Below are positions 1,110 through 14,414 of a stretch of DNA of 21,791 nucleotides, one piece after another. The notes beneath the pieces are model-generated. The model was not told the DNA's origin and did no database searches. It saw only the letters and a list, made by a program, of their open reading frames with translations. Numbering within the stretch: the stretch's first letter is position 1; each line of letters begins with the position of its first letter. The position numbers and the translations under genes were made by a program. This DNA comes from a virus (lineage: Duplodnaviria; Heunggongvirae; Uroviricota; Caudoviricetes): IMG/VR virus record IMGVR_UViG_3300029107_000019; one strand, given 5' to 3'.

Positions 1110-1598
1110 TTAATAGCCATCAGAAGTAATCGCTACAGATTTCAATCCCTCAATGTCATCCTTGGACAGGGCGAACCATTCACCGTGCTTTCTCTTTGCG
1201 GCAAATTTGCGATGAAGCATGTTTTCAGTTTCTCTTCCACCAGGGATCAGGCACTCAAGCTTCAAGCAGTCTGGTCCAGAGTTGCCAAGCGATTTGATGC
1301 GTTGTGGAATGTTGGATGAATACCCAATTTTGGTTAGCCCAGTTTTCTTCGATGACAAAACGTATACCTGAGGAGGTTCTTTTCTCTGGTCTTCCATTAC
1401 ACGTCTCATTGTTGCCATAAGTCCGCCGTGCATCAGCATTTCAACAAAGAACGCTGACCGAACACCTGACGACTTAAGCATGCCAGAAAATTCACTTGCC
1501 AATTCCATTAACTCTGCGATGTTTTCAGGAACTTTTTGGCAGTTATCTTCCTTGTATAAGGAAATCATTCTTTGAAGCTTTTCTTCTAATTGGTTCAT
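1110..1598 (-). CDS. T5orf172/GIY-YIG-like domain protein (moron at the bor position downstream of the spanins)
   Basis: ORF 1110-1634 starts at GTG; first ATG at 1598 gives 162 aa. C-terminal half (YVLSSKKTGLTKIGYS...LHRKF...GEWFALS) resembles the T5orf172/MUG113 motif pattern. Family call from memory. Confidence 0.45.
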   Translation of the reverse strand: MNQLEEKLQRMISLYKEDNCQKVPENIAELMELASEFSGMLKSSGVRSAFFVEMLMHGGLMATMRRVMEDQRKEPPQVYVLSSKKTGLTKIGYSSNIPQRIKSLGNSGPDCLKLECLIPGGRETENMLHRKFAAKRKHGEWFALSKDDIEGLKSVAITSDGY

Positions 1599-1803
1599 AG
1601 CGTCTTTACCTTTTAGAAAGTGAGCCTGTCTCACAGAAAAGCCGCCCCGAGATGGTCGCCACCATATACGGCAGTTCTCAGGCTCAACTTTCTGAAAGGC
1701 TCGGGTGATGTAATATGCGCGTGAGATGCGCTGTGAAATTCAGATGTAAAAAAAGCCCCGCATCGCGAGGCTCATTAAATGGACTTTGTGATTTGCAAAA
1801 AAA

Positions 1804-2262
1804 TTATTTCAGGCATTGCGTCCTGATGTATTCCTGCAGGTAGTTAACCTGCGCGGTTATCTTGTCGATTCCACTTCGGAGACGGTAATAATTGAGTTCA
1901 GCATCTGCTGTAAGTCCTGGGCTTTCTCCATCGCCCATGCCGCTGGCTCCGGTCGTTGACTTTGCACAGGTGGCGGCGACTTGCAGGCGCTTACGCCCAG
2001 CAGAAACATCAGCACGGAGACTTTCGATAGTCGCGTTAGCATCAGCAAGCTCCTTTGTGTATCTTGCGTCGAGTTCTGCTACATCACGTTGACGCTTCCG
2101 CATGTCAGCGATGGTGGCGTTCGCCTTCTCCAGTTCACTGGCCTTGTTATCGCGCTGCTCTTTGTAGGCGATTGCGTTATCACGGTAATGATTAACAGCC
2201 AATGACAGGCAGACGATGATGCAGATAACCAGAGCGGAGATAATCGCGGTTACTCTGTTCAT
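1804..2262 (-). CDS. Rz: Rz-type i-spanin (N-terminal TM helix plus coiled coil)
   Basis: ATG at 2262 overlaps the endolysin stop (ATGA); N-terminal hydrophobic segment [18 protein letters not shown] followed by charged coiled-coil region; position immediately after the endolysin. Confidence 0.75.
1857..2042 (-). CDS. Rz1: Rz1-type o-spanin lipoprotein, embedded in the +1 frame of Rz
   Basis: ORF wholly inside Rz in another frame; signal peptide [20 protein letters not shown] with lipobox-like VSAC, then proline-rich stretch ([13 protein letters not shown]), as in lambda Rz1. Start (2042 vs 2009) uncertain. Confidence 0.6.
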
Positions 2263-2756
2263 TGCTGACCCCACAAACAGATTTCACGCTCAATCTCACG
2301 ACGAGTCATGAGACCTTTCCATTGCTTACCGCCAGCATATGTCCAGCGACGTAGCTGATCACATGCGCCTTTGATATCGCCCTGGTTTATTTTGCGAAGA
2401 AGCGTCGATGTTCTGAAATTGCCAGCACCCACGTTGTAAACGAATGAGTAAAGAGCGCCGCGCGTTGTTTCCGGTATATCGACTTTGATGTACGGGTTAA
2501 TTTGTCTGGCGACAGTGGCAAGGTCTTTATTCAAGAGTGCTTTGCATTCTGCTTTGGTATACGTTTTACCGAGCATGATGTCTTTTCCTGTATGCCCGTG
2601 ACATACAGTCCATACACCAACAATATCTTTGTATGGTATGTAGCTGACACCTTCCAGACCATCGTTACCACTTGGGCCAGTGATTAACACTGATGCTATA
2701 GCAATTGCTCCGCCACCAATAGCAGCAGCAACGGCTTTTCGTAATGATGGAGGCAT
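2259..2756 (-). CDS. R: SAR endolysin (phage 21 R-type lysozyme with N-terminal signal-anchor-release domain)
   Basis: 165 aa; N-terminal Gly/Ala-rich weakly hydrophobic SAR segment ([20 protein letters not shown]) followed by a lysozyme domain; near-identical to phage 21 R as I recall it; ATGA overlap with the holin stop. Confidence 0.9.
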
Positions 2757-2971
2757 TATTCACCTCTCGCAGCCTTGCGCTTATCTTCTTTAATCTTGAA
2801 ATAAAGGTTTGTCAGGTACGTCAGCAGGCCAAATACCAGGCTACCCAGCACACCTATTGCTGCCCACTGTGAGGGCGTGACTTTATCGAGCAGCTGTAAA
2901 AACCAGTAACCGGCACTACCTGCTGAGGTGCCATAGGCGACACCCGTTGTTAACTTATCCATGGATTTCAT
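2756..2971 (-). CDS. S: Class II pinholin, phage 21 S-type, with dual-start motif (MKSM: antiholin from Met1, holin from Met4)
   Basis: Product [26 protein letters not shown]...[20 protein letters not shown] (71 aa) closely matches S21; two TM segments; the ORF-track extension to 3016 begins at TTG and is probably not translated. Confidence 0.85.
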
Positions 2972-3559
2972 AACCCCACCTCGCAGACAAAGCGGGTGTA
3001 AATTGAGGGAATACAACGTATCGCAAAAAAGCAGAAACGTAACAGACTCGGAGTCAGTGAATAACTCAGGTATTGAGTTATCAGCTAATATCGAGACTCA
3101 AAAAATGGAAAAACCAGCTCGACGGCGGGTTTAAGCTGTGTGACGAAGTAACCACTCTTAACAGCATAACCAATTTTTTACGTACGTAAACCACTGAATG
3201 ATATTTATGAGAATGCTACCGAGTGTTCAAAACACCACCACAAATACATAAGAAAACCTCAACAAATAACCAATAAATAATTTCCGGCGTTATTTTTAGT
3301 TAATTTAAATTAAACCACCGAATTATAGACTCCCCATAAATAACAGCCATTAATATAAATTAGCTAATAGGTTTATTTTTGTTCAAATAAGAGCCATAAA
3401 TAGGTTTCGATAGAAAAAGTTCAGATAAAAATAGAGATCTACTTCACAAATTAAATGAGAAACTAAAACTTACATCTTGAAATAATCACATTGATTAGAT
3501 GAATATTTATCGCGCAGTGACATCATTTTTTAATAATAGTTCAAAAAAAAGGGCTCACG

Positions 3560-4657
3560 ATGAAAAAATTAACAGTGGCAATTTCTGCTGTAGCTGCATC
3601 AGTACTGATGGCGATGTCTGCTCAGGCAGCTGAAATTTATAATAAAGACAGTAACAAGCTGGATCTGTACGGAAAAGTTAATGCCAAGCACTACTTTTCC
3701 TCTAACGATGCAGATGATGGTGATACTACTTATGTTCGTCTGGGCTTCAAAGGCGAAACCCAAATCAACGATCAGCTGACTGGTTTCGGTCAGTGGGAAT
3801 ATGAATTCAAAGGCAACCGCGCTGAATCTCAAGGTTCCTCCAAAGACAAAACCCGTCTTGCATTTGCAGGCCTGAAATTCGGTGACTACGGCTCAATCGA
3901 TTACGGCCGTAACTACGGTGTAGCATACGACATCGGTGCGTGGACTGACGTTCTGCCAGAATTCGGTGGCGATACCTGGACCCAAACAGATGTGTTCATG
4001 ACTGGTCGCACCACTGGTGTTGCAACCTATCGTAACAACGACTTCTTTGGTCTGGTTGATGGTCTGAACTTTGCTGCTCAGTACCAAGGCAAAAACGATC
4101 GTAGCGATTTCGATAACTACACCGAAGGTAACGGTGATGGCTTCGGTTTCTCTGCTACCTATGAATACGAAGGGTTCGGTATCGGTGCAACTTATGCGAA
4201 ATCTGATCGTACCGACACTCAAGTTAATGCAGGGAAAGTTCTTCCTGAAGTATTTGCTTCCGGTAAAAATGCAGAAGTTTGGGCCGCAGGTCTGAAATAT
4301 GATGCTAACAACATTTACCTGGCCACTACCTATTCTGAAACCCAGAATATGACTGTATTTGCTGATCACTTCGTTGCTAATAAAGCTCAAAACTTCGAAG
4401 CTGTTGCACAATATCAGTTCGATTTCGGTCTGCGTCCGTCCGTTGCTTACCTGCAATCTAAAGGTAAGGATCTTGGAGTATGGGGCGATCAGGACTTAGT
4501 CAAATATGTTGATGTAGGTGCAACCTATTACTTCAACAAAAATATGTCTACTTTCGTTGATTACAAAATCAACCTGCTTGACAAAAATGACTTCACTAAA
4601 GCACTCGGTGTAAGCACTGATGACATCGTTGCTGTAGGTCTGGTTTACCAGTTCTAA
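3560..4657 (+). CDS. Phage-encoded general outer-membrane porin (OmpC/OmpF/NmpC/Lc family), lysogenic-conversion gene
   Basis: 365 aa; signal peptide ending [10 protein letters not shown]; mature N-terminus ([17 protein letters not shown]), internal motifs ([40 protein letters not shown]) and C-terminal ...VGLVYQF typical of enterobacterial trimeric porins; AAGGG RBS before ATG; sits between Q and S in opposite orientation as nmpC does in DLP12. Confidence 0.9.
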
Positions 4658-4675
4658 TCTGATTACGAAAAAGAT

Positions 4676-4707
4676 ATGTTGCGGGAGGCTTTGCCTCCCC
4701 AACATAT
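4676..4707 (-). terminator. Hairpin terminator: candidate tR' for the short late-promoter transcript (also the 3' end of the porin gene)
   Basis: Perfect inverted repeat atatgttg-cgggaggc-ttt-gcctccc-caacatat; on the minus strand it is followed by a U-run (cuuuuucg). Seen in sequence. Confidence 0.5.
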
Positions 4708-4795
4708 AAGTGGCTCCCTCAAGCCACTTCCTTTAGGAGCACAACCTTGCTTCTAACTATATAAACCTTCTGTTATATATTACCCTTTATTTTTG

Positions 4796-4830
4796 GGGGC
4801 GTTGCAACGCCCCATTTTTAATAATTTTTA
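4796..4830 (+). terminator. Intrinsic terminator-like GC hairpin plus T-tract downstream of the porin gene; overlaps the candidate late-promoter region on the opposite strand
   Basis: ggggcgttgcaacgcccc hairpin followed by atttttaataattttta on the + strand. Confidence 0.5.
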
Positions 4831-4846
4831 GTAAACAATTGGCATA

Positions 4847-5230
4847 TTAATTAGAGTTATTAACAACGATATCCATCTCTAACCGGATATCTAATGCCAT
4901 TAACATCCCTTCAATTATGCCCTCAGCCTTCTGTAACCTTTTCCCGATATAACCATCAGAGCAGCAATGCTTACCTGCCAGTGACATGAATGTCATACCG
5001 ACTACATAATAATCTACTAATAAATCGTGCAAATCGCTGTTGTTCTTTTTCAGACGGGCCATGCACCCGCAAATGATCATCGCGTCATCGTCACAACATT
5101 GCGGGCGAGATTTTACTTTTGAAGGAATTAATCCCTTAAAACCGGCGGCAATGGACGACCAGGTCACATCTTCATGATTATTAGCCGCCCACGCTCCCCA
5201 ACGCTCAAGAACCATCTGAATATCACGCAT
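4847..5230 (-). CDS. Q: Late-gene antiterminator Q (phage 82/DLP12 QuuD type)
   Basis: 127 aa from the ATG at 5230 (ORF-track start at 5245 is TTG); matches my memory of DLP12 QuuD ([21 protein letters not shown]...); Cys-rich zinc-binding region ([12 protein letters not shown]). Confidence 0.85.
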
Positions 5231-5315
5231 CAACTTACTCCACAAAACTCAGACCAGAACGCCAATTACAAGCAAAAATCAACAAAACAGTATTAGTTGA
5301 TTGTTATCTCTGACT

Positions 5316-5453
5316 TCATACTCCTGCTCCTGTCAGTGTTTTGGCGTAATTCTTCAGTATTCGGTAATCGGTCAAAACAGAGCCGGGGAAACGATATAAG
5401 CGCAGACGCCCCCAGCGGTGGCGAAGAAGTTCTGCCATATTAAACTCAAACAT
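5316..5453 (-). CDS. ylcG: YlcG-like small nin-region protein (45 aa)
   Basis: Translated by hand: [45 protein letters not shown]; start overlaps the rusA stop (TGATG); below the ORF-track size cutoff. Confidence 0.65.
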   Translation of the reverse strand: MFEFNMAELLRHRWGRLRLYRFPGSVLTDYRILKNYAKTLTGAGV

Positions 5454-5815
5454 CATTCATTCCCCATTTCGGTGATGGTCAGTTCCAGCCTCCCACCTTT
5501 GGTAACAGGCATCTTCACAACGCGGTAATCAACGACCTGAGCATCATCCAGCCAGAAACCTGCTTTAGTGAGTGCGTCAAAAGCGGCTTTTTGCAGATTA
5601 TCCAGGTCACGGCTACGGCGATCCGGCATGTGGCACTCAATGCGGATTTTCACAGGCATAGCCAGGCCGATATCCAGCATTGCGTTTTTAATGATTCGGG
5701 CGACGTTATCGCGGTATGCCTGCCCCTCTGCACTGACGTGCGTGCGCCCGCGATTATGGCGGTAATAGCGATTATTGCTCGGAGGCCAGGGTAATGTGAT
5801 ACTGTAGGTATTCAC
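5453..5815 (-). CDS. rusA: RusA Holliday-junction resolvase
   Basis: 120 aa; matches RusA of DLP12 as I recall it ([35 protein letters not shown]...); GTG start overlapping the upstream gene's stop. Confidence 0.9.
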
Positions 5816-6102
5816 GCCTTAATAACCCCCTCTTTCAGCCAGATAACCTGTGTTCTCGCCATACCTTCCAGCGCGCATTCTTTTGCATATGCAGCATCGA
5901 CAAAATGTGTGCGGCGGTCGATTTCGTCGTGGCAGGCAGAACATGCAATGGTGGCAATCAGGTCTGGCGGTTTGATACCGGTACCGCACAATCCAGCCAG
6001 CCGGATATGTGCCAGTACAGACGTTTCAGAATTGCCATTACATACGCCAGGGATTCTTACCTGGCATTCCCGACCACGCGCTGCTTTTCTCAAATCAGCC
6101 AT
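5812..6102 (-). CDS. ybcO: YbcO-like nin-region protein (DUF1364, putative nuclease), 96 aa
   Basis: From [23 protein letters not shown]... with Cys-rich motif; the ORF-track N-terminal extension to 6141 is probably not translated. Confidence 0.75.
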
Positions 6103-6265
6103 GATTCCTCCTTGCTGCCAGTCGCAACCATTTTTTATCAACCAGGCTAGCGGTATATCCGAGCAGTGTTGGTATTTCGGATGGCTTCAGCTCAGGCTTA
6201 CGCTTACGACGATTTGATACTCTGTAGATGTGTCCGTTCATGACACGAATAAGCGGTGTAGCCAT
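6095..6265 (-). CDS. ninE: NinE-like protein (56 aa)
   Basis: Translated by hand: [56 protein letters not shown]; the YTA.L.D..WLR motif resembles lambda NinE; ATG overlaps the ybcN stop (TAATG). Confidence 0.6.
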   Translation of the reverse strand: MATPLIRVMNGHIYRVSNRRKRKPELKPSEIPTLLGYTASLVDKKWLRLAARRNHG

Positions 6266-6720
6266 TACGCCTCCTGCTTGTCGCGGAGCAGCTGGAACTC
6301 GCAGCTCTGCGGAATAGTCAGGTGGCAGCCAATATTCACCGCCCAGGCTTCAACCTTACACAGGAAGACATACATCTCTCCGGTATCAAGATCGGAGGTA
6401 TGGCGTAACGACTGGATAGTGGTGATATCACCGGTTACGACATCAACCAGGTCTTTGGTTTCATAACCGAGATATGTGTGTTTGAGAGCATCTTTTACCC
6501 AAGCTGGAGTGGCGAACGTTTTACCCCTGCTGATGAGGTATTCACTGATTTCGCTGTACCACATGTGGCTGAGTGCATTCTGGGAAAGACTGCGTTTCTC
6601 ACGCCACGGTTTAAGCACCATGCGAAAGCATTTTCCGTTCTCCAGATAAGGCTGGATCTGCTGGCCGATAGCGATGAAGTTACCGCGATGCAGTTTGATG
6701 CCATCTTGTGGTAGGTTCAC
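6265..6720 (-). CDS. ybcN: YbcN-like nin-region protein (DLP12 YbcN family, reported DNA base-flipping protein)
   Basis: 151 aa; matches DLP12 YbcN as I recall it ([15 protein letters not shown]...[14 protein letters not shown]); GTG start. Confidence 0.8.
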
Positions 6721-6907: not shown

Positions 6908-7264
6908 TTAATTGTGCTTTATTCCTTCAAGCATTGCCTTCATACCAACCAAAGAAATGTTTAGCTCTTCAACTTTCTCAGGGCTATATAATTCAGAATG
7001 AAGCCAATATTCTGATTTATCTAAACATCTTTTAGCCAGCTCTCGATCAAAGTCTACGACTTGGGAAGACGCTTCATACCAAAGCCTATAAAGTTTTTCT
7101 TCTTCGTTTGGGTTATTAGGCTCACCACGTTTTAATTTTTCAGTATATAAAATTGTTGAACAAATCGCAGGAGTTAATCCAGTGATTGCCCTCTGCCGCA
7201 GATCGGATTTGTTTGTTATCCACCCCAACAGACGATCTCCCATCCATGTGATAATTGTATCCAT
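6908..7264 (-). CDS. Hypothetical protein, 118 aa (AT-rich accessory gene in the nin region)
   Basis: ATG at 7264 preceded by AAGAAGGG Shine-Dalgarno; no family recognised; lower GC than flanking phage genes. Confidence 0.6.
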   Translation of the reverse strand: MDTIITWMGDRLLGWITNKSDLRQRAITGLTPAICSTILYTEKLKRGEPNNPNEEEKLYRLWYEASSQVVDFDRELAKRCLDKSEYWLHSELYSPEKVEELNISLVGMKAMLEGIKHN

Positions 7265-7710
7265 GCTTTAGCCCTTCTTAGTAAATAGTGTGTAGGGCGA
7301 CTGAAGGACCGAGTTTATGCTTTTTCGCATTGCTTTCAGTTAGTACACCGGTATCGCACCGGAAACAATCCTACGGCAAATTGGTTGTCTGACCTCTCGG
7401 TTTTTCGTGCATTAACCGATACCCACTACAGTCTCGGCGAAAGCTGCACACCCCCAGGGTGTACTGGTAGCACTCGGCACAGCCTAGCACGCCACTTTCT
7501 TCTCACTATCCAGTCTAATTTTATCCCCTAGTCAGACACTCAGATGTAGTGCTCCGCAGCGGCATGCGGGGGAATACAAAAACTCGGACAAAATTGGGTC
7601 CTCCTTTTTGAATCACTCGCGGGGATGTAGTTATTAATGTAGTGGCATAGTGAATTTGGCCACCTGAATAGAGGTGATATCATCACCTCATAGTCAAAAC
7701 AGGTGACATT

Positions 7711-8885
<1,175 letters not shown>

Positions 8886-8984
8886 CCACTACATAATACA
8901 TGGAAAAAGATCTGTTTTCAAATCCAACATTATATGGTTTCAATACCACGGGGTGGCTATGTGTTTCTCATTGTTAATTGGAAT

Positions 8985-9653
8985 CTACTGTAATCGATCC
9001 GAACGTAAATGCGGCAAAACTCGACTCCACTTATCATCCTGCCACGGCCGGAATTTTACATGTGCCGTTTCTCTGGCAAGGATTGCCTGTGCCTTATTGA
9101 GTATCTGGGGATATTCTTGCTCGATAGAAGTGAAGCGACCAGCTTCACGATGCTCCGCAACCTGAAGAAGAGGAGTAACGTTCTGGCAGGCGGTTAACAT
9201 CGCATCCCCAGCTCGCCACAACCAAGCAAGTGTGCAAAGTTCGTTATCAGTGAATTGTTTTATGATTGGGGATTGTTGAACTTCTCGATCGAGAATATCC
9301 AGAACCCAACGGCGGAACTCTTTGGCTACAGGAGTGCGGGCGAACATGGCGATCAAATGGGCTCCGCGGAGAGAGAAAACGCGTACTTTCTTCTTCAAGT
9401 TTCGAGTACTTTTCGAGGTACTCAGATCAAGTACCTCGACATCATTCTCTAAGGTACTGACTTCAAGCACTCTAGTCATACTACTGGAAAATTCGTCAGC
9501 ATATTTGTTGTAAATCATCGTGACTGCGCGACTATTCGAATACTTCAGTGCTCTTGCTAGGTTGGATGAAGTTAGCCATATTCCGGCAATATTTGCCACT
9601 GGCACTAGTGCTTCACCTTGGAAGTTCAGATCTGATGTTGCTACAATACTCAT
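8985..9653 (-). CDS. ant: Antirepressor-like protein (Bro-N/Ant-type), immI-like module
   Basis: N-terminal Bro-N-like motif (FQGEALVPVANIAGIWLTSSNLARAL) and a VRVFSLRGAHLIAMFA...EFRRWVLDIL segment; sits directly downstream of an Arc-like gene as in P22 immI. ATG at 9653 has an AAGGAA RBS; the alternative upstream ATG at 9734 would overlap arc. Confidence 0.6.
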   Translation of the reverse strand: MSIVATSDLNFQGEALVPVANIAGIWLTSSNLARALKYSNSRAVTMIYNKYADEFSSSMTRVLEVSTLENDVEVLDLSTSKSTRNLKKKVRVFSLRGAHLIAMFARTPVAKEFRRWVLDILDREVQQSPIIKQFTDNELCTLAWLWRAGDAMLTACQNVTPLLQVAEHREAGRFTSIEQEYPQILNKAQAILARETAHVKFRPWQDDKWSRVLPHLRSDRLQ

Positions 9654-9723
9654 GTCGATATTTCCTTCGCGGTTATTTTCGATAGAAGCCCCTAAGGTTG
9701 CCGCCAGTGGGGCTTCGCTGTTT

Positions 9724-9882
9724 CTAGCGAGCATGTATCCGTGTTCTAAATTTCAATGCCCATACAAGCGCCTGAACAATAGCTGCGTTCTCAGACATCC
9801 CTTCCTCCTGAGCAATTCGCTTGAATTCATCCTTCACTTTTTGCGGATAGCGAAGGGTAATTTTTACCTCTTTCTTTTCCAT
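9724..9882 (-). CDS. arc: Arc-like ribbon-helix-helix repressor (52 aa)
   Basis: MEKKEVKITLRYPQKVKDEFKRIAQEEGMSENAAIVQALV resembles P22 Arc (N-terminal beta-strand FNLR-type motif plus SxNSxI-type helix); GAGG RBS. Confidence 0.6.
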   Translation of the reverse strand: MEKKEVKITLRYPQKVKDEFKRIAQEEGMSENAAIVQALVWALKFRTRIHAR

Positions 9883-9981
9883 TGACATAACCTCATGAGG
9901 CCACAATGACACCATGAGGCCATAATGCCACCATTGAATTGATGTGGCAATATGGCACCATTCATTTTTTTGGGGGGTTCA
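9883..9981. promoter_or_regulatory. Divergent promoter/operator region between the arc-ant and mnt-like genes (Pant/Pmnt analogue)
   Basis: Perfect 10-bp palindrome CCTCATGAGG (9891-9900) and direct repeats CATGAGGCCA(C/T)AATG(A/C)CACCAT; divergent gene arrangement. Confidence 0.5.
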
Positions 9982-10299
9982 ATGGCTGACAAACAAGTAA
10001 AAGACTACGATAAGTTTAACCTCCGTTTCCCTGATGGGATGCGTGAAGCTATAGCTGAACGAGCCAAACGAAACGGGCGCTCAATGAATTCAGAAATCAT
10101 TCAAATACTCCAAGATGCCATAGAAGGAAGTTCTGAACTATCTAAACGTTTAAATTTAGTTGGGTTTATTCGAGGTGACAGAGAGATACGTGACCTGGAA
10201 GATAATGCAAGCAAACTTGCGTTGTATATCGATCATAGAACACAAGAGTTTAAACAAATTTTATTGGAAGATTTAAAATTACTCCTTAATCATGATTAA
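9982..10299 (+). CDS. mnt: Mnt-like ribbon-helix-helix repressor
   Basis: FNLRFPDGMREAIAERAKRNGRSMNSEIIQILQDAI matches the Arc/Mnt RHH signature; divergent from arc-ant. Start 9982 vs 9952 uncertain. Confidence 0.6.
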   Translation: MADKQVKDYDKFNLRFPDGMREAIAERAKRNGRSMNSEIIQILQDAIEGSSELSKRLNLVGFIRGDREIRDLEDNASKLALYIDHRTQEFKQILLEDLKLLLNHD

Positions 10300-10343
10300 T
10301 GTTAACATTTTCCCAAAATCCAATTGATAGAGGAGTTATTTAT

Positions 10344-10697
10344 ATGCGTATTAAAATCATGCCTCTCCCAAGTACTATCCAAATGAGCCAAAAAAAACGG
10401 ACAACAAGTGCAGCAGTATCCACAACGTTTTTTGGCCCAAATAGTCTTAAACCACAAGGAGATAGCCTTGAAAATACAGCAAAGAAAAACTCTTCAATTT
10501 TGCGAGAAAAAAACTACAGAAAAATTGCTGAAACACTATATAAAACTGGGGTCATAACTATGGCAACATTTGATAGAGAATGTAATTTAGGAGGTAAAGA
10601 CAGAAAGTACTTGCGACATATTTTTTCCCTACTTTTGTCAGAAAAAATCAAATCAAAACAAATCAGAATAACCCGCAAGAAAAAACAGAAGAAATAA
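10344..10697 (+). CDS. Hypothetical lysine-rich basic protein (117 aa), AT-rich accessory gene downstream of mnt
   Basis: ATG at 10344 with GAGGAG Shine-Dalgarno 8 nt upstream; an alternative ATG at 10299 overlaps the mnt stop (TAATG); strongly basic C-terminus (RITRKKKQKK); no family recognised. Confidence 0.5.
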   Translation: MRIKIMPLPSTIQMSQKKRTTSAAVSTTFFGPNSLKPQGDSLENTAKKNSSILREKNYRKIAETLYKTGVITMATFDRECNLGGKDRKYLRHIFSLLLSEKIKSKQIRITRKKKQKK

Positions 10698-10776
10698 AAC
10701 GCCAGCGAAAACTTCTCTTTATTTTCATAAGAAAAGAGCATAATTACCAGTTTTCCATATAATCCATAAGTTATGC

Positions 10777-11070
10777 TTATGCTGTAGTCCTCCCATATAC
10801 CGCCAACACCCGCTTCATCGCGGCACTCTGGCGACACTCCTTAAAAATCAGGTTCGTGCCCACCTTCCCTTCCCGTTCTTCCCTGGTAGCGAACCGGTAA
10901 TACACCGTTCGCCAGACCTTACCATCAATGACTAAGATTCCTGCCCGCGCCATTTTAGCCGCAGCCTGATTTATGCTGGTTACTGTTGCGCCTGTTACCG
11001 CAGCAACGTCCGGCGCACAGAAGCTCTTATACATCCCCAGGTAATGAATAATTGCCTCTTTGCCCGTCAT
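10777..11070 (-). CDS. ren: Ren-like protein
   Basis: 97 aa; matches lambda Ren as I recall it (MTGKEAIIHYLG...); start overlaps the P stop (ATGA). Confidence 0.7.
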   Translation of the reverse strand: MTGKEAIIHYLGMYKSFCAPDVAAVTGATVTSINQAAAKMARAGILVIDGKVWRTVYYRFATREEREGKVGTNLIFKECRQSAAMKRVLAVYGRTTA

Positions 11071-12780: not shown

Positions 12781-13320
12781 TCATATTGCCCCCAGCATGG
12801 TGGTTACCATCGCCATCAATGGACCAGCCAGATCCGGGTCCACTCGAAACATCGACACAATGCCTTCACTCATCTCCTTCAGTTTCTGGTGGCGTGGTGC
12901 GTTGAGAATGACCGCCTGCTTTGCCTCACAGAGTTCCTTTTCCATTTCAGCCAGCCGAGCCATGAAGCTATCCTGCTCAACCAGGTGGCCGCGATATTCC
13001 AGCGGTAGTACCGCCAGAATTGCCGGGGTCAGTTCACGCACGTTATTTCGGTATTTTTCAGAATCGAATTTGTTATCGAGGAAGCGGAACAGCTTCTGGC
13101 GTGCACGGCTGACATCATCAGGGAAATCGATAGTGCCGCCGCCCTGCTCCCGATACTCATTCACAATGAGTGTGGCAACGACATCCTGATTATCTTCAGC
13201 CGACCAGGCGCGGACGGCATCACGGATTTTTTCGTGGCCTGGCACCTGTTTTGTTTGAGAACGATTTATCACCGCAGTCGGGCTAAATCCGCTAGTCTGT
13301 TGGTATGTAAGTGGTTGCAT
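12781..13320 (-). CDS. Hypothetical early regulatory protein in the cII position (possibly YdaT-like)
   Basis: 179 aa; AAGGAG RBS; located between cro-like and O; not similar to lambda CII; YdaT-like assignment is from memory and weak. Confidence 0.4.
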   Translation of the reverse strand: MQPLTYQQTSGFSPTAVINRSQTKQVPGHEKIRDAVRAWSAEDNQDVVATLIVNEYREQGGGTIDFPDDVSRARQKLFRFLDNKFDSEKYRNNVRELTPAILAVLPLEYRGHLVEQDSFMARLAEMEKELCEAKQAVILNAPRHQKLKEMSEGIVSMFRVDPDLAGPLMAMVTTMLGAI

Positions 13321-13389
13321 AATTGACTCCTTTAGTTTGAATTGACTGTTAAGTTGATTGCTTATTGTTAAAGAGCGTGAAATGGAAAT

Positions 13390-13620
13390 TTAAGCTGCGT
13401 TCTTTTCGGTGTGTGGAAACAACTTCGGAAGATCCGGGCGAATCTGGTATGCCTTCACTACTCCACCAGTAGCCGTAACAATGCTGCCGACATGTTCAGG
13501 GGATACCTTTGCTTTGTTGTGAAGCCACTTATAGACGGCCTGCTGTGAAACTTCGCAGGCAGCGCCCAGTTTCTTTTGTGAACCAACGATATTGATCGCT
13601 GTTTTGATAGCTGGATTCAT
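13390..13620 (-). CDS. cro: Cro-like HTH regulator (YdaS/Cro family)
   Basis: 76 aa; HTH (KKLGAACEVSQQAVYKWLHN); GGAGG RBS; divergent from the CI-like repressor across an operator region. Confidence 0.75.
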   Translation of the reverse strand: MNPAIKTAINIVGSQKKLGAACEVSQQAVYKWLHNKAKVSPEHVGSIVTATGGVVKAYQIRPDLPKLFPHTEKNAA

Positions 13621-13724
13621 AACAACCTCCGTGGTTAATTTGAATCAAGATTAAAACTATGGTTGTTTTTAGTCAACAACCATTTTCGTTTGATGGAATA
13701 AAACCTTGGTTGTACATTTGGACT
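13621..13724. promoter_or_regulatory. OR-like operator with divergent pR/pRM-type promoters
   Basis: Palindrome ATGGTTGTT-N7-AACAACCAT (13659-13683) and further GGTTGT/ACAACC half-sites; the same half-site recurs near the pL-like promoter; cI has no SD, consistent with a leaderless pRM transcript as in lambda. Confidence 0.6.
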
Positions 13725-14414
13725 ATGAAAACAACACTCTCAGAAAGACTTAAAGAAGCCAGATTAGCGCGAGGCCTTACACAAAAGGCGCTTGGGGATT
13801 TGGTCGGGGTTAGCCAAGCTGCTATTCAGAAAATCGAAACAGGGAAAGCTAACCAAACAACTAAAATCGTGGAGATCGCGAACGCTTTGGGTGTGCGCGC
13901 AGAATGGTTATCTTCTGGCGTTGGAAATATGTCAGACAGTACAGTGCAACCAATACAATCAACTGTCAGCCATTCCAAATACTTTAAGATTGACGTTCTT
14001 GATATAGAAGTGAGTGCCGGGCCGGGAGTCATCAACCGTGAATTTGTAGAAGTTCTACGCTCGGTTGAGTACTCGTTTGACGATGCTCGTCACATGTTCG
14101 ATGGCAGGAAGGCGGAAAATATCCGCATCATTAACGTGCGTGGTGACAGCATGTCAGGAACGATCGAACCAGGTGATCTGCTGTTCGTTGATATCACGGT
14201 TAAATCTTTCGACGGTGATGGTATCTATGCGTTTCTGTACGACGACACAGCCCATGTAAAGCGCCTGCAAATGATGAAAGATAAGCTACTGGTTATCTCT
14301 GATAACAAGAGCTACTCACCGTGGGACCCGATCGAGAAAGACGAGATGAACCGGGTGTTCATTTTCGGGAAGGTTATTGGCAGTATGCCGCAGACGTATA
14401 GGAAACACGGATAA
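13725..14414 (+). CDS. cI: CI-type prophage repressor (HTH_XRE N-domain plus LexA-like S24 peptidase C-domain)
   Basis: HTH LTQKALGDLVGVSQAAIQKIETGK; Ala-Gly autocleavage site (EVSAGPG); catalytic Ser (GDSMSGT) and Lys (HVKRLQ). The upstream ATG at 13659 lies in the operator region and is rejected. Confidence 0.85.
   Translation: MKTTLSERLKEARLARGLTQKALGDLVGVSQAAIQKIETGKANQTTKIVEIANALGVRAEWLSSGVGNMSDSTVQPIQSTVSHSKYFKIDVLDIEVSAGPGVINREFVEVLRSVEYSFDDARHMFDGRKAENIRIINVRGDSMSGTIEPGDLLFVDITVKSFDGDGIYAFLYDDTAHVKRLQMMKDKLLVISDNKSYSPWDPIEKDEMNRVFIFGKVIGSMPQTYRKHG

What the first reader, a model, noticed from the sequence alone, without database searches (positions are those of the whole stretch)
8985..10299. 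P22 immI-like mnt/arc/ant module inside a lambda-type early operon
An Arc-like RHH gene followed by a Bro-N antirepressor-like gene is transcribed divergently from an Mnt-like RHH gene, and a perfect 10-bp palindrome CCTCATGAGG plus direct repeats sit in the intergenic region. This is the P22 immunity-I architecture, here placed between ren and the nin genes of a phage whose P, bet, exo and gam look lambda-identical. A second immunity circuit in this position would add antirepressor-based control of induction, or anti-immunity against co-resident prophages.
Basis: partly seen in the sequence, partly recalled or inferred. Interest (0 to 1): 0.45.

Follow-up and report, generated by a model that had tools for sequence, protein, structure and literature searches.

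The report
Portable P22-type antirepressor cassette in lambdoid prophage
This lambda-like E. coli prophage carries, between its replication and nin genes, a complete relative of the classic phage P22 "immunity I" switch (two small repressors, an antisense RNA and an antirepressor); it is a real module of an already known kind, not a new mechanism.

Summary
The three genes exist and are homologous to P22 immI. The Mnt-like N-domain is 47% identical to P22 Mnt and the Arc-like protein 36% identical to P22 Arc. The antirepressor-like protein is Bro-N + P22_AR_C. It recurs at the same position in every related locus searched, with strong covariation. It moves the likely ant start from 9734 to 9653 (222 aa).

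The 10-bp palindrome is chance-level and not conserved; its left half is the arc ribosome-binding site. The conserved repeat is a 17-bp unit, GRGGCCAYAATGMCACC. Three copies overlap the Pant-like promoter and its leader, and repeat sequences track the Mnt-like DNA-reading residues across relatives.

The cassette is portable. It occurs at ren/ninB, between tail genes L and K of Stx2 phages, upstream of tail gene M, after Q, and at the P22 position. arc-ant always runs with the host operon, and the cargo is swapped among Bro-network domains.

Function is inferred, not shown: Mnt-like keeps ant off in lysogens, Arc-like and sar limit an Ant pulse, and Ant inactivates CI-type repressors. Verdict: new member of a known kind, modest interest.

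The parts
8985..9653 (-). ant-like gene, 222 aa from ATG 9653 (MSIVATSDLNF...). Domains Bro-N + P22_AR_C.
   Evidence: Pfam on the 222-aa form: P22_AR_C 1.2e-16, Bro-N 5.9e-9. PHROG Ant 2e-61. SD GAAGGAAA (9661-9668) lies 7 nt before the ATG. An ATG within 2 nt of the sar 5' end is seen in 25 of 27 further loci with a sar-like hit abutting arc. The upstream frame is closed in P22 and 4 other loci but open in 23 of 28.
9618..9647 (+). Psar-like promoter inside the first codons of ant: TTGGAA-18-TACAAT with TG extension.
   Evidence: Promoter scan. An extended -10 TGcTAYAMT lies 6-8 nt before the sar 5' end in most of 28 loci, P22 included.
9655..9722 (+). sar-like antisense RNA. Hairpin I carries the anti-SD UUUCCUUC in its loop. 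Hairpin II is a GC-rich terminator that abuts the arc stop codon.
   Evidence: Rfam RF00262: 34 bits (gathering 43), E=1.7e-4. Five of 8 diverse relatives hit RF00262 at the same position. Own model R1 hits all 41 sources searched. 13 of 17 pairs show compensatory changes; 94.7% of cells are paired against 34-52% with slid partners. Fold z-score -2.7.
9724..9882 (-). arc-like RHH repressor gene, 52 aa (MEKKEVKITLRYP...), first gene of the ant operon.
   Evidence: Pfam Arc 1.4e-4. 36% identity to P22 Arc, E=4e-9. Most PDB hits are P22 Arc repressor entries. SD GAGG is 8 nt upstream of ATG 9882.
9891..9900 (.). The 10-bp palindrome CCTCATGAGG. It is the junction of the arc SD (CCTC = reverse complement of GAGG) and the edge of operator unit U1. 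Not a conserved element.
   Evidence: chance level; not conserved in L004, L016, L018, L005.
9897..9913 (+). Operator-like unit U1, GAGGCCACAATGACACC, in the Pant-like leader (about +2 to +18).
   Evidence: 0 mismatches to the unit. Conserved in five sequence variants of this Mnt class.
9916..9932 (+). Operator-like unit U2, GAGGCCATAATGCCACC. It covers the Pant-like -10.
   Evidence: Nearly unchanged in Stx2 phage WGPS8, which has a different Arc type but the same Mnt N-domain.
9943..9959 (-). Operator-like unit U3, inverted: GGTGCCATATTGCCACA. It covers the Pant-like -35.
   Evidence: 3 mismatches. Inverted repeat I2, 83% complementary. Unchanged from 9945 to 9959 across the five variants; 9943-9944 vary.
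9922..9950 (-). Pant-like promoter: -35 TTGCCA (9950..9945), 17 nt, TG-extended -10 CATTAT (9927..9922). Predicted start near 9915.
   Evidence: Promoter scan, 9 of 12 with TG. The equivalent promoters score 10-11 of 12 in L022 and L027.
9925..9953 (+). Putative Pmnt-like promoter: ATGCCA-17-CAATAT with TG extension. Weak and placed by analogy.
   Evidence: Only 7 of 12 by my own count, with rivals of equal score. Overlapping divergent partners are found by the scan in L022 and L027, and P22's annotated pair is recovered by the same scan.
9982..10299 (+). mnt-like gene, 105 aa. N-terminal RHH with DNA-reading strand K-F-N-L-R-F-P, and an unrelated C-terminal tail.
   Evidence: Pfam Arc 6.3e-20, no Repressor_Mnt domain. 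47% identity to P22 Mnt residues 2-50, E=1e-14. Best PDB hit 1mnt, 1.7e-8.

Best explanation
Window 8985-10299 is a complete, portable immunity-I ('ant moron') cassette of the P22 kind: mnt-like repressor, then divergently arc-like repressor, sar-like antisense RNA and antirepressor. It is inserted at the ren/ninB junction with arc-ant pointing the same way as the pR early-right operon.

Proposed working; every step below is inferred from homology and anatomy, none is shown experimentally here:
1. In the lysogen, Mnt-like protein made from a weak promoter binds the 17-bp units. U1 and U2 cover the Pant-like -10 and leader; U3 covers the -35. This keeps arc-ant silent.
2. When the cassette enters a cell without matching Mnt, Pant fires. 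After derepression of pR, N-antiterminated transcripts also read through it. Either way ant mRNA is made.
3. Arc-like protein, the first product of the operon, shuts Pant down again.
4. sar-like RNA, made from a promoter inside the first codons of ant, pairs with the ant ribosome-binding site. It limits translation, including from read-through transcripts, so Ant comes as a pulse.
5. Ant (Bro-N + P22_AR_C) binds CI-type repressors without cleaving them. This reinforces commitment to lytic growth of its own prophage, whose CI is of the RecA-cleavable S24 type, and could derepress co-resident lambdoid prophages.
For: Homology of all four parts:
- Mnt N-domain 47% identical to P22 Mnt, E=1e-14, best PDB hit 1mnt.
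- Arc 36% identical, E=4e-9.
- Ant shares P22_AR_C with P22 Ant.
- sar: Rfam RF00262 at E=1.7e-4 exactly between arc and ant on the antisense strand, with a conserved extended -10 promoter.

Conserved synteny:
- In nearly all of 50 viral loci that encode a Mnt-like relative, a divergent arc-like gene and a downstream Bro-network gene follow.
- A sar-like element abuts the arc stop in 36 of 40 sources besides P22.
- 13 of 17 sar base pairs covary.

Control region:
- Three copies of a 17-bp unit, 0.28 expected, overlap a TG-extended promoter that points at arc.
- Repeat pentamers follow the Mnt-like beta-strand residues whatever the Arc type: KNR/RNR with CACCA/TGCCA, KMR with TGACA, RTR with CATCA, PGR with TATCA, KTR with AGGCA.
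- Overlapping divergent promoters are found in relatives by the scan that also recovers P22's annotated Pant and Pmnt.

Context and precedent:
- arc-ant is co-directional with the flanking operon at all five insertion positions seen, as in P22, where late transcripts read through the ant moron (PMC2629481).
- The cassette is 98% identical in Escherichia phage PhiR5_1, a complete phage genome record whose host is given as E. coli C.
- Knocking out a nin-region ant with a P22_AR_C domain in Stx phage Phi24B lowered pR'-lux after norfloxacin to 27-56% of wild type (PMC3064807).
Against: - No experiment bears on this cassette.
- The Ant N-domain is Bro-N, not P22_AR_N. The shared C-domain is only 21% identical to P22 Ant, E=8e-4. 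Which domain contacts repressor is not known to me.
- The Mnt-like C-terminal tail is not homologous to the P22 tetramerisation domain, and its AlphaFold model is unreliable (pLDDT 50).
- No separate Arc operator could be identified. The P22 operator half-sites are absent.
- The Pmnt-like promoter in this window is only 7 of 12, with equally good rivals.
- The Rfam sar score (34) is below the gathering score (43).
- The ant frame is open through sar in 23 of 28 loci, with a start codon overlapping the arc stop. A long, arc-coupled Ant isoform is therefore not excluded.
- An IS element sits 91 bp downstream, and near-identical copies lie in truncated DLP12-like remnants that lack a repressor. 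Some copies may be relics.
Confidence: 0.7

Rival explanations
1. The regulatory cassette is immI-like, but its cargo is not an antirepressor of CI. The Bro-N + P22_AR_C protein would instead be a DNA-binding regulator or an inter-phage or anti-defence effector of the 'Bro network', and mnt/arc/sar merely time its expression.
For: Cargo downstream of arc-sar is swapped among very different architectures: Bro-N+P22_AR_C, P22_AR_N+P22_AR_C, P22_AR_N+other, KilA-N+ANT, Rha+KilA-N. Bro-N and KilA-N are described as DNA-interacting, domain-swapping modules (PMC10111431). Identity to P22 Ant is confined to 97 residues at 21%. The Phi24B ant knockout had no effect on superinfection and only a partial effect on induction (PMC3064807).
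Against: P22_AR_C is the domain shared with the one biochemically defined antirepressor of this group and with Phi24B Ant. The cassette that controls it is the one that evolved around P22 Ant. The best PHROG family is 'anti-repressor Ant', 2e-61. There is no significant PADLOC or NCBIfam hit (one PADLOC match, PDC-S05, at E=0.0063) pointing to another function.
Confidence: 0.2
2. The cassette here is a non-functional relic carried in a decaying prophage. At most, the Mnt-like repressor is still useful, giving immI-type immunity against incoming phages of the same operator class.
For: An IS3-family element is inserted 91 bp downstream of ant, opposite to the early operon. The 99.8%-identical copies in E. 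coli chromosomes lie in DLP12-like remnants truncated at ren, with no O, P or CI. In P22-like phages, ant morons reduced to mnt alone, or with degraded ant or arc, are documented (PMC2629481).
Against: All three ORFs, the sar-like element, its promoter and the three operator units are intact. They are 98-99.8% conserved between chromosomal copies and phage PhiR5_1. The IS has an intact 3-bp target duplication and lies outside the cassette.
Confidence: 0.08
3. The two RHH genes form a toxin-antitoxin or partition-type pair unrelated to antirepression.
For: PHROG families labelled 'partition protein ATPase' and Pfam FitA-like_RHH and HicB match the RHH domains weakly.
Against: The same PHROG label is attached to P22 Mnt itself in the P22 record, so it is an annotation artefact. 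No toxin or ATPase partner is present. The best matches are P22 Mnt and Arc. Synteny with sar and ant is conserved in nearly all loci.
Confidence: 0.02

Closest known systems
Phage P22 immunity I region (immI, the 'ant moron': mnt, arc, sar, ant)
   Same: Same four components in the same order and orientation:
- Mnt-type RHH gene divergent from the arc-sar-ant unit.
- sar antisense to the arc-ant spacer, with the anti-SD in hairpin I, a terminator abutting the arc stop, and a promoter inside the first ant codons.
- Ant with a P22_AR_C domain.
- arc-ant co-directional with the surrounding operon, so read-through can occur.
(PMC2629481)
   Different: - Ant N-domain is Bro-N instead of P22_AR_N.
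- The Mnt C-terminal tail is unrelated (no PF11423).
- P22 Oarc and Omnt sequences are absent. There are instead three copies of one 17-bp unit, and no separate Arc site is recognisable.
- The location is the early-right (nin) operon of a lambda-like prophage, not the late operon next to the tailspike gene.
- The ant frame is open through sar up to a start codon that overlaps the arc stop.
ant of Stx2 phage Phi24B / 933W group (nin-region antirepressor)
   Same: An ant gene with a P22_AR_C domain inside the nin region of the early-right operon, expressed after derepression. Experimental evidence shows that it speeds relief of CI repression (PMC3064807).
   Different: Phi24B ant has no mnt, arc or sar (no hit with model R1; annotation). 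Its N-domain is different. Identity to the window protein is 18% over 71 residues.
mnt/arc/ant cassette between tail genes L and K of Stx phages (e.g. Stx2a_WGPS8, 2851, YYZ-2008)
   Same: Same Mnt N-domain class, and operator units U2 and U3 are almost unchanged: 85% DNA identity over window ~9900-10119. Same cassette layout, including a sar-like element.
   Different: Cargo is the P22-type Ant (P22_AR_N + P22_AR_C). The Arc is of another type, the Mnt C-terminal tail is different, and the cassette is inserted in the tail operon.
LexA-controlled antirepressors (Gifsy-1/3, N15 AntC, SPC32H Ant, 186 Tum)
   Same: Same proposed output: a small protein that inactivates a prophage repressor non-proteolytically and can act in trans on other prophages (PMC3121763, listed but not read; otherwise my own knowledge).
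   Different: No LexA box is present in the control region. Control is by phage-encoded RHH repressors plus an antisense RNA, and the resident CI here has an S24 autocleavage domain.

Membership tests
P22 immI / ant moron | Mnt-type ribbon-helix-helix repressor gene transcribed divergently from the ant operon | tested here: met
   Pfam Arc 6.3e-20. 47% identity to the P22 Mnt N-domain, E=1e-14. Best PDB hit 1mnt. Divergent orientation with a 99-bp spacer.
P22 immI / ant moron | Mnt C-terminal tetramerisation domain (Pfam Repressor_Mnt, PF11423) | tested here: not met
   P22 Mnt hits PF11423 at 1.6e-20; the window protein does not. The tail is hypervariable among relatives. The AlphaFold model shows helices but at pLDDT 50, so oligomerisation by another tail remains possible but untested.
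P22 immI / ant moron | Arc-type RHH repressor as the first gene of the ant operon | tested here: met
   Pfam Arc 22.0 bits against a cut-off of 20.4. 36% identity to P22 Arc, E=4e-9. Most PDB hits are P22 Arc repressor entries.
P22 immI / ant moron | sar antisense RNA across the arc-ant spacer, covering the ant ribosome-binding site | tested here: met
   RF00262 at 34 bits, below gathering 43, E=1.7e-4, full-length match on the antisense strand. Conserved at this position in relatives. Covariation in 13 of 17 pairs. Conserved extended -10 promoter. Expression not tested.
P22 immI / ant moron | Antirepressor with P22_AR_N + P22_AR_C architecture | tested here: not met
   The C-domain is present (1.2e-16), but the N-domain is Bro-N. 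P22 Ant is P22_AR_N + P22_AR_C. Both architectures occur behind the same regulators in relatives.
P22 immI / ant moron | Overlapping divergent promoters Pant and Pmnt sharing one control region | tested here: inconclusive
   The Pant-like promoter is found by scan. The Pmnt-like candidate scores only 7 of 12, with rivals of equal score. Clear overlapping pairs occur in relatives L022 and L027, and in P22 with the same scan.
P22 immI / ant moron | Distinct Arc and Mnt operators (P22 Oarc and Omnt sequences) | tested here: not met
   P22 half-sites are absent from 9883-9981. Instead there are three copies of one 17-bp unit, and repeats covary with the Mnt-like beta-strand residues. No Arc-specific site was found.
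P22 immI / ant moron | Location in the late operon between gene 16/sieA and the tailspike gene | tested here: not met
   Here the cassette lies between ren and ninB in the early-right operon. Other family members sit at the P22 position (L028, L029, L036, L048).
P22 immI / ant moron | Ant binds and inactivates the prophage repressor | not testable with these tools
   Needs protein-protein and operator-binding assays. No solved structure is related by sequence, and the model is too poor for a fold search (pLDDT 42).
LexA (SOS)-controlled antirepressor modules | LexA box overlapping the antirepressor promoter | tested here: not met
   No CTG-N10-CAG motif in 9883-9981. The best match to the 20-bp consensus in 8900-10400 is 12 of 20, inside ant.
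Unregulated nin-region ant (Phi24B/933W type) | ant expressed only as part of the pR operon, with no dedicated repressors or antisense RNA | tested here: not met
   The window has mnt-like, arc-like and sar-like elements. Phi24B has none.

The most novel reading that the evidence does not exclude
The mnt/arc/sar unit may be a self-contained, portable expression controller. On this reading it has been recombined onto many different Bro-network cargo proteins, with the junction just after the ~13 codons that carry Psar, and dropped co-directionally into at least five operons of lambdoid phages.

Its Mnt N-domain and operator classes (KNR, KMR, RTR, PGR, KTR) would then define cross-immunity groups shared by otherwise unrelated prophages. 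This prophage and many Stx phages share one class with near-identical operator units. A resident prophage could therefore police, or fail to police, the antirepressor of another, and so influence Stx-phage induction in polylysogens. A second element of this reading is an Ant long isoform translationally coupled to arc through the sar target.
Probability: 0.3. Interest if true: 0.55.

Novelty: new member of a known kind. Interest (0 to 1): 0.3.

Why it matters
Antirepressors let prophages be induced without repressor cleavage, and let one phage wake another. In E. coli that bears on Shiga-toxin phage induction and on competition among co-resident prophages.

- Part of this cassette matches in 906 of 5,426 complete E. 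coli genomes. It is a full immI homologue, including the antisense RNA that annotation pipelines miss.
- Its Mnt/operator class is shared with Stx phages. That gives concrete, testable predictions about cross-immunity between prophages.
- The analysis corrects the likely ant start codon.

It does not reveal a new mechanism.

Tried and rejected
- Palindrome CCTCATGAGG as operator: rejected. It is chance-level, not conserved, and its left half is the arc SD.
- LexA/SOS control of ant: no box found.
- Toxin-antitoxin or partition reading of the RHH pair: rejected. The 'partition' label also sits on P22 Mnt itself.
- A separate Arc-like operator: I compared loci with the same Mnt class but different Arc types, and the reverse. 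No Arc-specific motif emerged. One coordinated change, GGCC to ATTA in both arms in L025, hints at a composite site but is anecdotal.
- Pmnt in the window: no candidate scores above 8 of 12, and the one placed by analogy scores 7.
- Intrinsic terminators after ant, after mnt-like/orfX or after ren: none convincing.
- AlphaFold2 single-sequence models of Mnt-like (pLDDT 50) and Ant (pLDDT 42) were too poor, so no fold search was run.
- PDB sequence search for Ant: no hit at E<=1.
- NCBIfam and PADLOC added nothing significant for Ant, Arc-like, orfX or the 118-aa ORF; Ant has one weak PADLOC match, PDC-S05, at E=0.0063.
- orfX as part of the cassette: rejected. Its homologues sit alone at the same junction in Hafnia prophages.
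- Literature searches for an mnt/arc/ant cassette in E. coli lambda-like phages found only P22-like cases and gene-level 'Ant' counts in Stx phages.
Full report
**Context.** The window is a lambdoid prophage whose early-right operon runs on the minus strand.
- Immunity and replication genes: a CI-like repressor (13659-14414, HTH_3 + Peptidase_S24), a YdaS-family cro, a YdaT-domain gene in the cII slot, then O, P and ren (10777-11070).
- Next comes the region in question, followed by an IS element, a 118-aa ORF, ninB (6265-6720), rusA and Q.
- DNA identity to lambda is 94.0% over the O C-terminus, P and ren, and 96.9% over kil-gam-bet-exo. That is close but not identical.

**Observation.** The three genes exist.
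- The Mnt-like protein (9982-10299, +) hits Pfam Arc at 6.3e-20.
- The Arc-like protein (9724-9882, -) hits Arc just above the curated cut-off (22.0 against 20.4 bits).
- The large ORF hits Bro-N (7.6e-9) and P22_AR_C (1.8e-16), and the PHROG family 'anti-repressor Ant' at 2e-61.
- The palindrome is at 9891-9900. It is not unusual: the window has 31 perfect 10-bp palindromes against 21 expected, and 9% of shuffled spacers contain one.
- The palindrome is absent from the nearest sequence variants. Its left half is the reverse complement of the arc Shine-Dalgarno.
- The direct repeats are real.

**Homology to P22 immI.** I fetched the annotated P22 genome and compared directly.
- The Mnt-like N-domain is 47% identical to P22 Mnt residues 2-50 (E=1e-14). 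Its best solved relative is 1mnt.
- It lacks the Repressor_Mnt tetramerisation domain that P22 Mnt has.
- The Arc-like protein is 36% identical to Arc (E=4e-9).
- The antirepressor-like protein shares only the C-terminal P22_AR_C domain with P22 Ant (21% identity, E=8e-4). P22 Ant has P22_AR_N where the window has Bro-N.

**A fourth component: a sar-like antisense RNA.** An Rfam scan of 8700-10900 gave a single hit, to sar RNA (RF00262).
- It is a full-length match at 9655-9719 on the plus strand, antisense to arc-ant: 34 bits (gathering 43), E=1.7e-4.
- It has both sar hairpins. The first carries UUUCCUUC in its loop, complementary to a strong SD (GAAGGAAA, 9661-9668). The second is a GC-rich terminator ending 2 nt from the arc stop codon.
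- A promoter-like site with a TG-extended -10 (TTGGAA-18-TACAAT, 9618-9647) ends 7 nt before it.
- Five of eight diverse relatives gave RF00262 hits at the same place.
- A covariance model built from seven sequences including P22 found the element in all 41 sources searched. In 36 of 40 non-P22 sources it abuts the arc stop; in four it follows an extra ORF.
- On the resulting alignment, 13 of 17 pairs show compensatory changes, and 94.7% of cells pair against 34-52% when partners are slid. The alignment is fitted to the model, which inflates these numbers somewhat.
- An extended -10 of the form TGcTAYAMT lies 6-8 nt upstream of the RNA in most of the 28 loci examined, P22 included.

**Start of ant.**
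- In P22 the ant ATG directly follows the sar 5' end. Here ATG 9653 does the same, with the strong SD 7 nt upstream.
- An ATG lies within 2 nt of the sar 5' end in 25 of 27 further loci whose sar-like hit abuts arc, and the N-termini are conserved (MNIVAKSDLNF...).
- Caveat: the ant frame stays open across sar in 23 of 28 loci. A start codon overlaps the arc stop by 11 nt in three different Arc C-terminus classes, while the frame is closed in P22 and four others. A long, arc-coupled isoform is not excluded.

**Control region (9883-9981).**
- The conserved repeat is a 17-bp unit, GRGGCCAYAATGMCACC. U1 is at 9897-9913, U2 at 9916-9932, and U3 is inverted at 9943-9959. These are the only three matches in the window, with 0.28 expected.
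- The units are kept in five sequence variants of this Mnt class.
- A TG-extended promoter pointing at arc (-35 at 9950..9945, -10 at 9927..9922) has its -35 inside U3 and its -10 inside U2. U1 lies in the leader.
- A plus-strand Pmnt is only weakly recognisable here. In relatives L022 and L027 the scan finds overlapping divergent promoter pairs, and the same scan recovers P22's annotated Pant and Pmnt exactly.
- Across 40 spacers, the repeated pentamers follow the three DNA-facing residues of the Mnt-like beta-strand, whatever the Arc type. The units are therefore most likely Mnt-like operators.
- No separate Arc site could be found. P22 operator half-sites are absent, and there is no LexA box.

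**The cassette is a mobile moron.**
- Of 50 viral loci with a Mnt-like relative, virtually all have the divergent arc-like gene and a downstream Bro-network gene.
- Positions seen: ren/ninB (this window, PhiR5_1, E. coli SCU-113 and others), between tail genes L and K (Stx2a_WGPS8, L015), upstream of tail gene M (L037), after gene 16 as in P22 (L028, L029, L036, L048), and between Q and the lysis genes (L040).
- In each case the recognisable flanking genes are on the arc-ant strand. The same holds in P22, where late transcripts read through the ant moron (PMC2629481).
- Cargo varies: Bro-N+P22_AR_C, P22_AR_N+P22_AR_C, P22_AR_N alone, KilA-N+ANT, Rha+KilA-N.
- Part of the query matches in 906 of 5,426 complete E. 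coli genomes, but only five carry this exact version.
- Stx phages share the Mnt N-domain and units U2 and U3 at 85% DNA identity.

**Mechanism (inferred).** By homology with P22, and from the anatomy:
1. Mnt-like protein holds Pant off in the lysogen.
2. Pant firing in a cell without matching Mnt, or N-antiterminated pR read-through after derepression, yields arc-ant mRNA.
3. Arc-like protein then shuts Pant down, and sar-like RNA blocks the ant ribosome-binding site, so Ant comes as a pulse.
4. Ant would bind CI-type repressors.

The resident CI has an S24 domain, so Ant would be an additional route to induction, not the only one. The nearest experimental precedent for an early-operon ant is Phi24B. 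There, deleting a nin-region ant with a P22_AR_C domain cut late-promoter activity after norfloxacin to 27-56% of wild type (PMC3064807). That gene has no mnt, arc or sar.

**Rivals.**
- The cargo may not be a CI antirepressor, given the domain shuffling and low identity to P22 Ant.
- This copy may be a relic. An IS lies 91 bp downstream, and near-identical copies lie in truncated DLP12-like remnants.
- The TA or partition reading rests on an annotation artefact.

**Verdict.** It is a new member of a known kind. The useful additions are the sar-like RNA, the corrected start codon, the 17-bp operator units and the shared Mnt/operator classes. Interest is modest.

Noticed in passing
window 7638-8893: An IS3-family (IS911-like) element: orfA 7711-8022, orfB 8058-8885, with an intact 3-bp target duplication TAA. 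It is inserted 91 bp downstream of the ant stop, opposite to the early-right operon, and is absent from the otherwise 96-99.8% identical E. coli locus L001. It is probably polar on ninB..Q.
   Followed up: partly
window 10344-10697 (+): orfX is a 117-aa, lysine-rich, 32-35% GC gene with a good SD, just downstream of mnt-like. It has no Pfam, PHROG, NCBIfam or PADLOC hit, and only 12 protein clusters exist. In Hafnia paralvei lambdoid prophages it sits alone, antisense, at the same replication/ninB junction without the cassette. It is therefore an independent moron of unknown function.
   Followed up: partly
window 9654-9734, and 27 related loci: The ant reading frame is free of stops across the whole sar region in 23 of 28 loci. 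A start codon (ATG or GTG) overlaps the arc stop by 11 nt in three different Arc C-terminus classes. This may mean a long Ant isoform or translational coupling, or it may be a by-product of RNA-level constraint.
   Followed up: partly
window 9615-9653, and related loci: The first ~13 codons of ant (M-x-I-V-A ... N-F-Q/H-G) are conserved even between cargo proteins with unrelated N-domains. The likely reason is that they encode the sar promoter on the other strand. The recombination junction of the cassette therefore lies inside ant.
   Followed up: partly
L025 (IMGVR_UViG_2839585306_000004), 1588-6333: Five plus-strand sar-like hits and several RHH gene pairs with two Ant-type genes lie in one 8-kb locus. 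This looks like a tandem array of antirepressor cassettes.
   Followed up: no
window 12781-14414: The immunity region is of the YdaS/YdaT type. cro hits YdaS_toxin (4e-17), the 179-aa gene in the cII slot hits YdaT_toxin (2.6e-29), and the repressor has HTH_3 + Peptidase_S24.
   Followed up: no
window 3560-4657 (+): A full-length porin gene (Porin_1, 1.8e-156) lies downstream of the Q-like antiterminator gene, on the opposite strand, in the position where I recall nmpC in DLP12-type prophages (comparison from memory, not tested).
   Followed up: no
window 6908-7264 (-): A 118-aa ORF, 37-41% GC, between the IS and ninB. It has no hit in Pfam, NCBIfam or PADLOC and is conserved in L001, L008 and L010.
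   Followed up: no
PDB 9pio chain G: A recently deposited 79-aa 'Arc family DNA-binding protein', chain G of a multi-chain entry, is hit by both RHH proteins (E about 1e-3). I did not find out what complex it belongs to.
   Followed up: no
Mnt-like proteins of L004, L005, L016 compared with window 10130-10299: One N-terminal RHH class (MA(D/E)KQVKDYDKFNLRFPDGMREAIAERAKRNGRSMN) is joined to at least four unrelated C-terminal tails. This indicates domain shuffling at about residue 50, the same boundary as between the two domains of P22 Mnt.
   Followed up: partly
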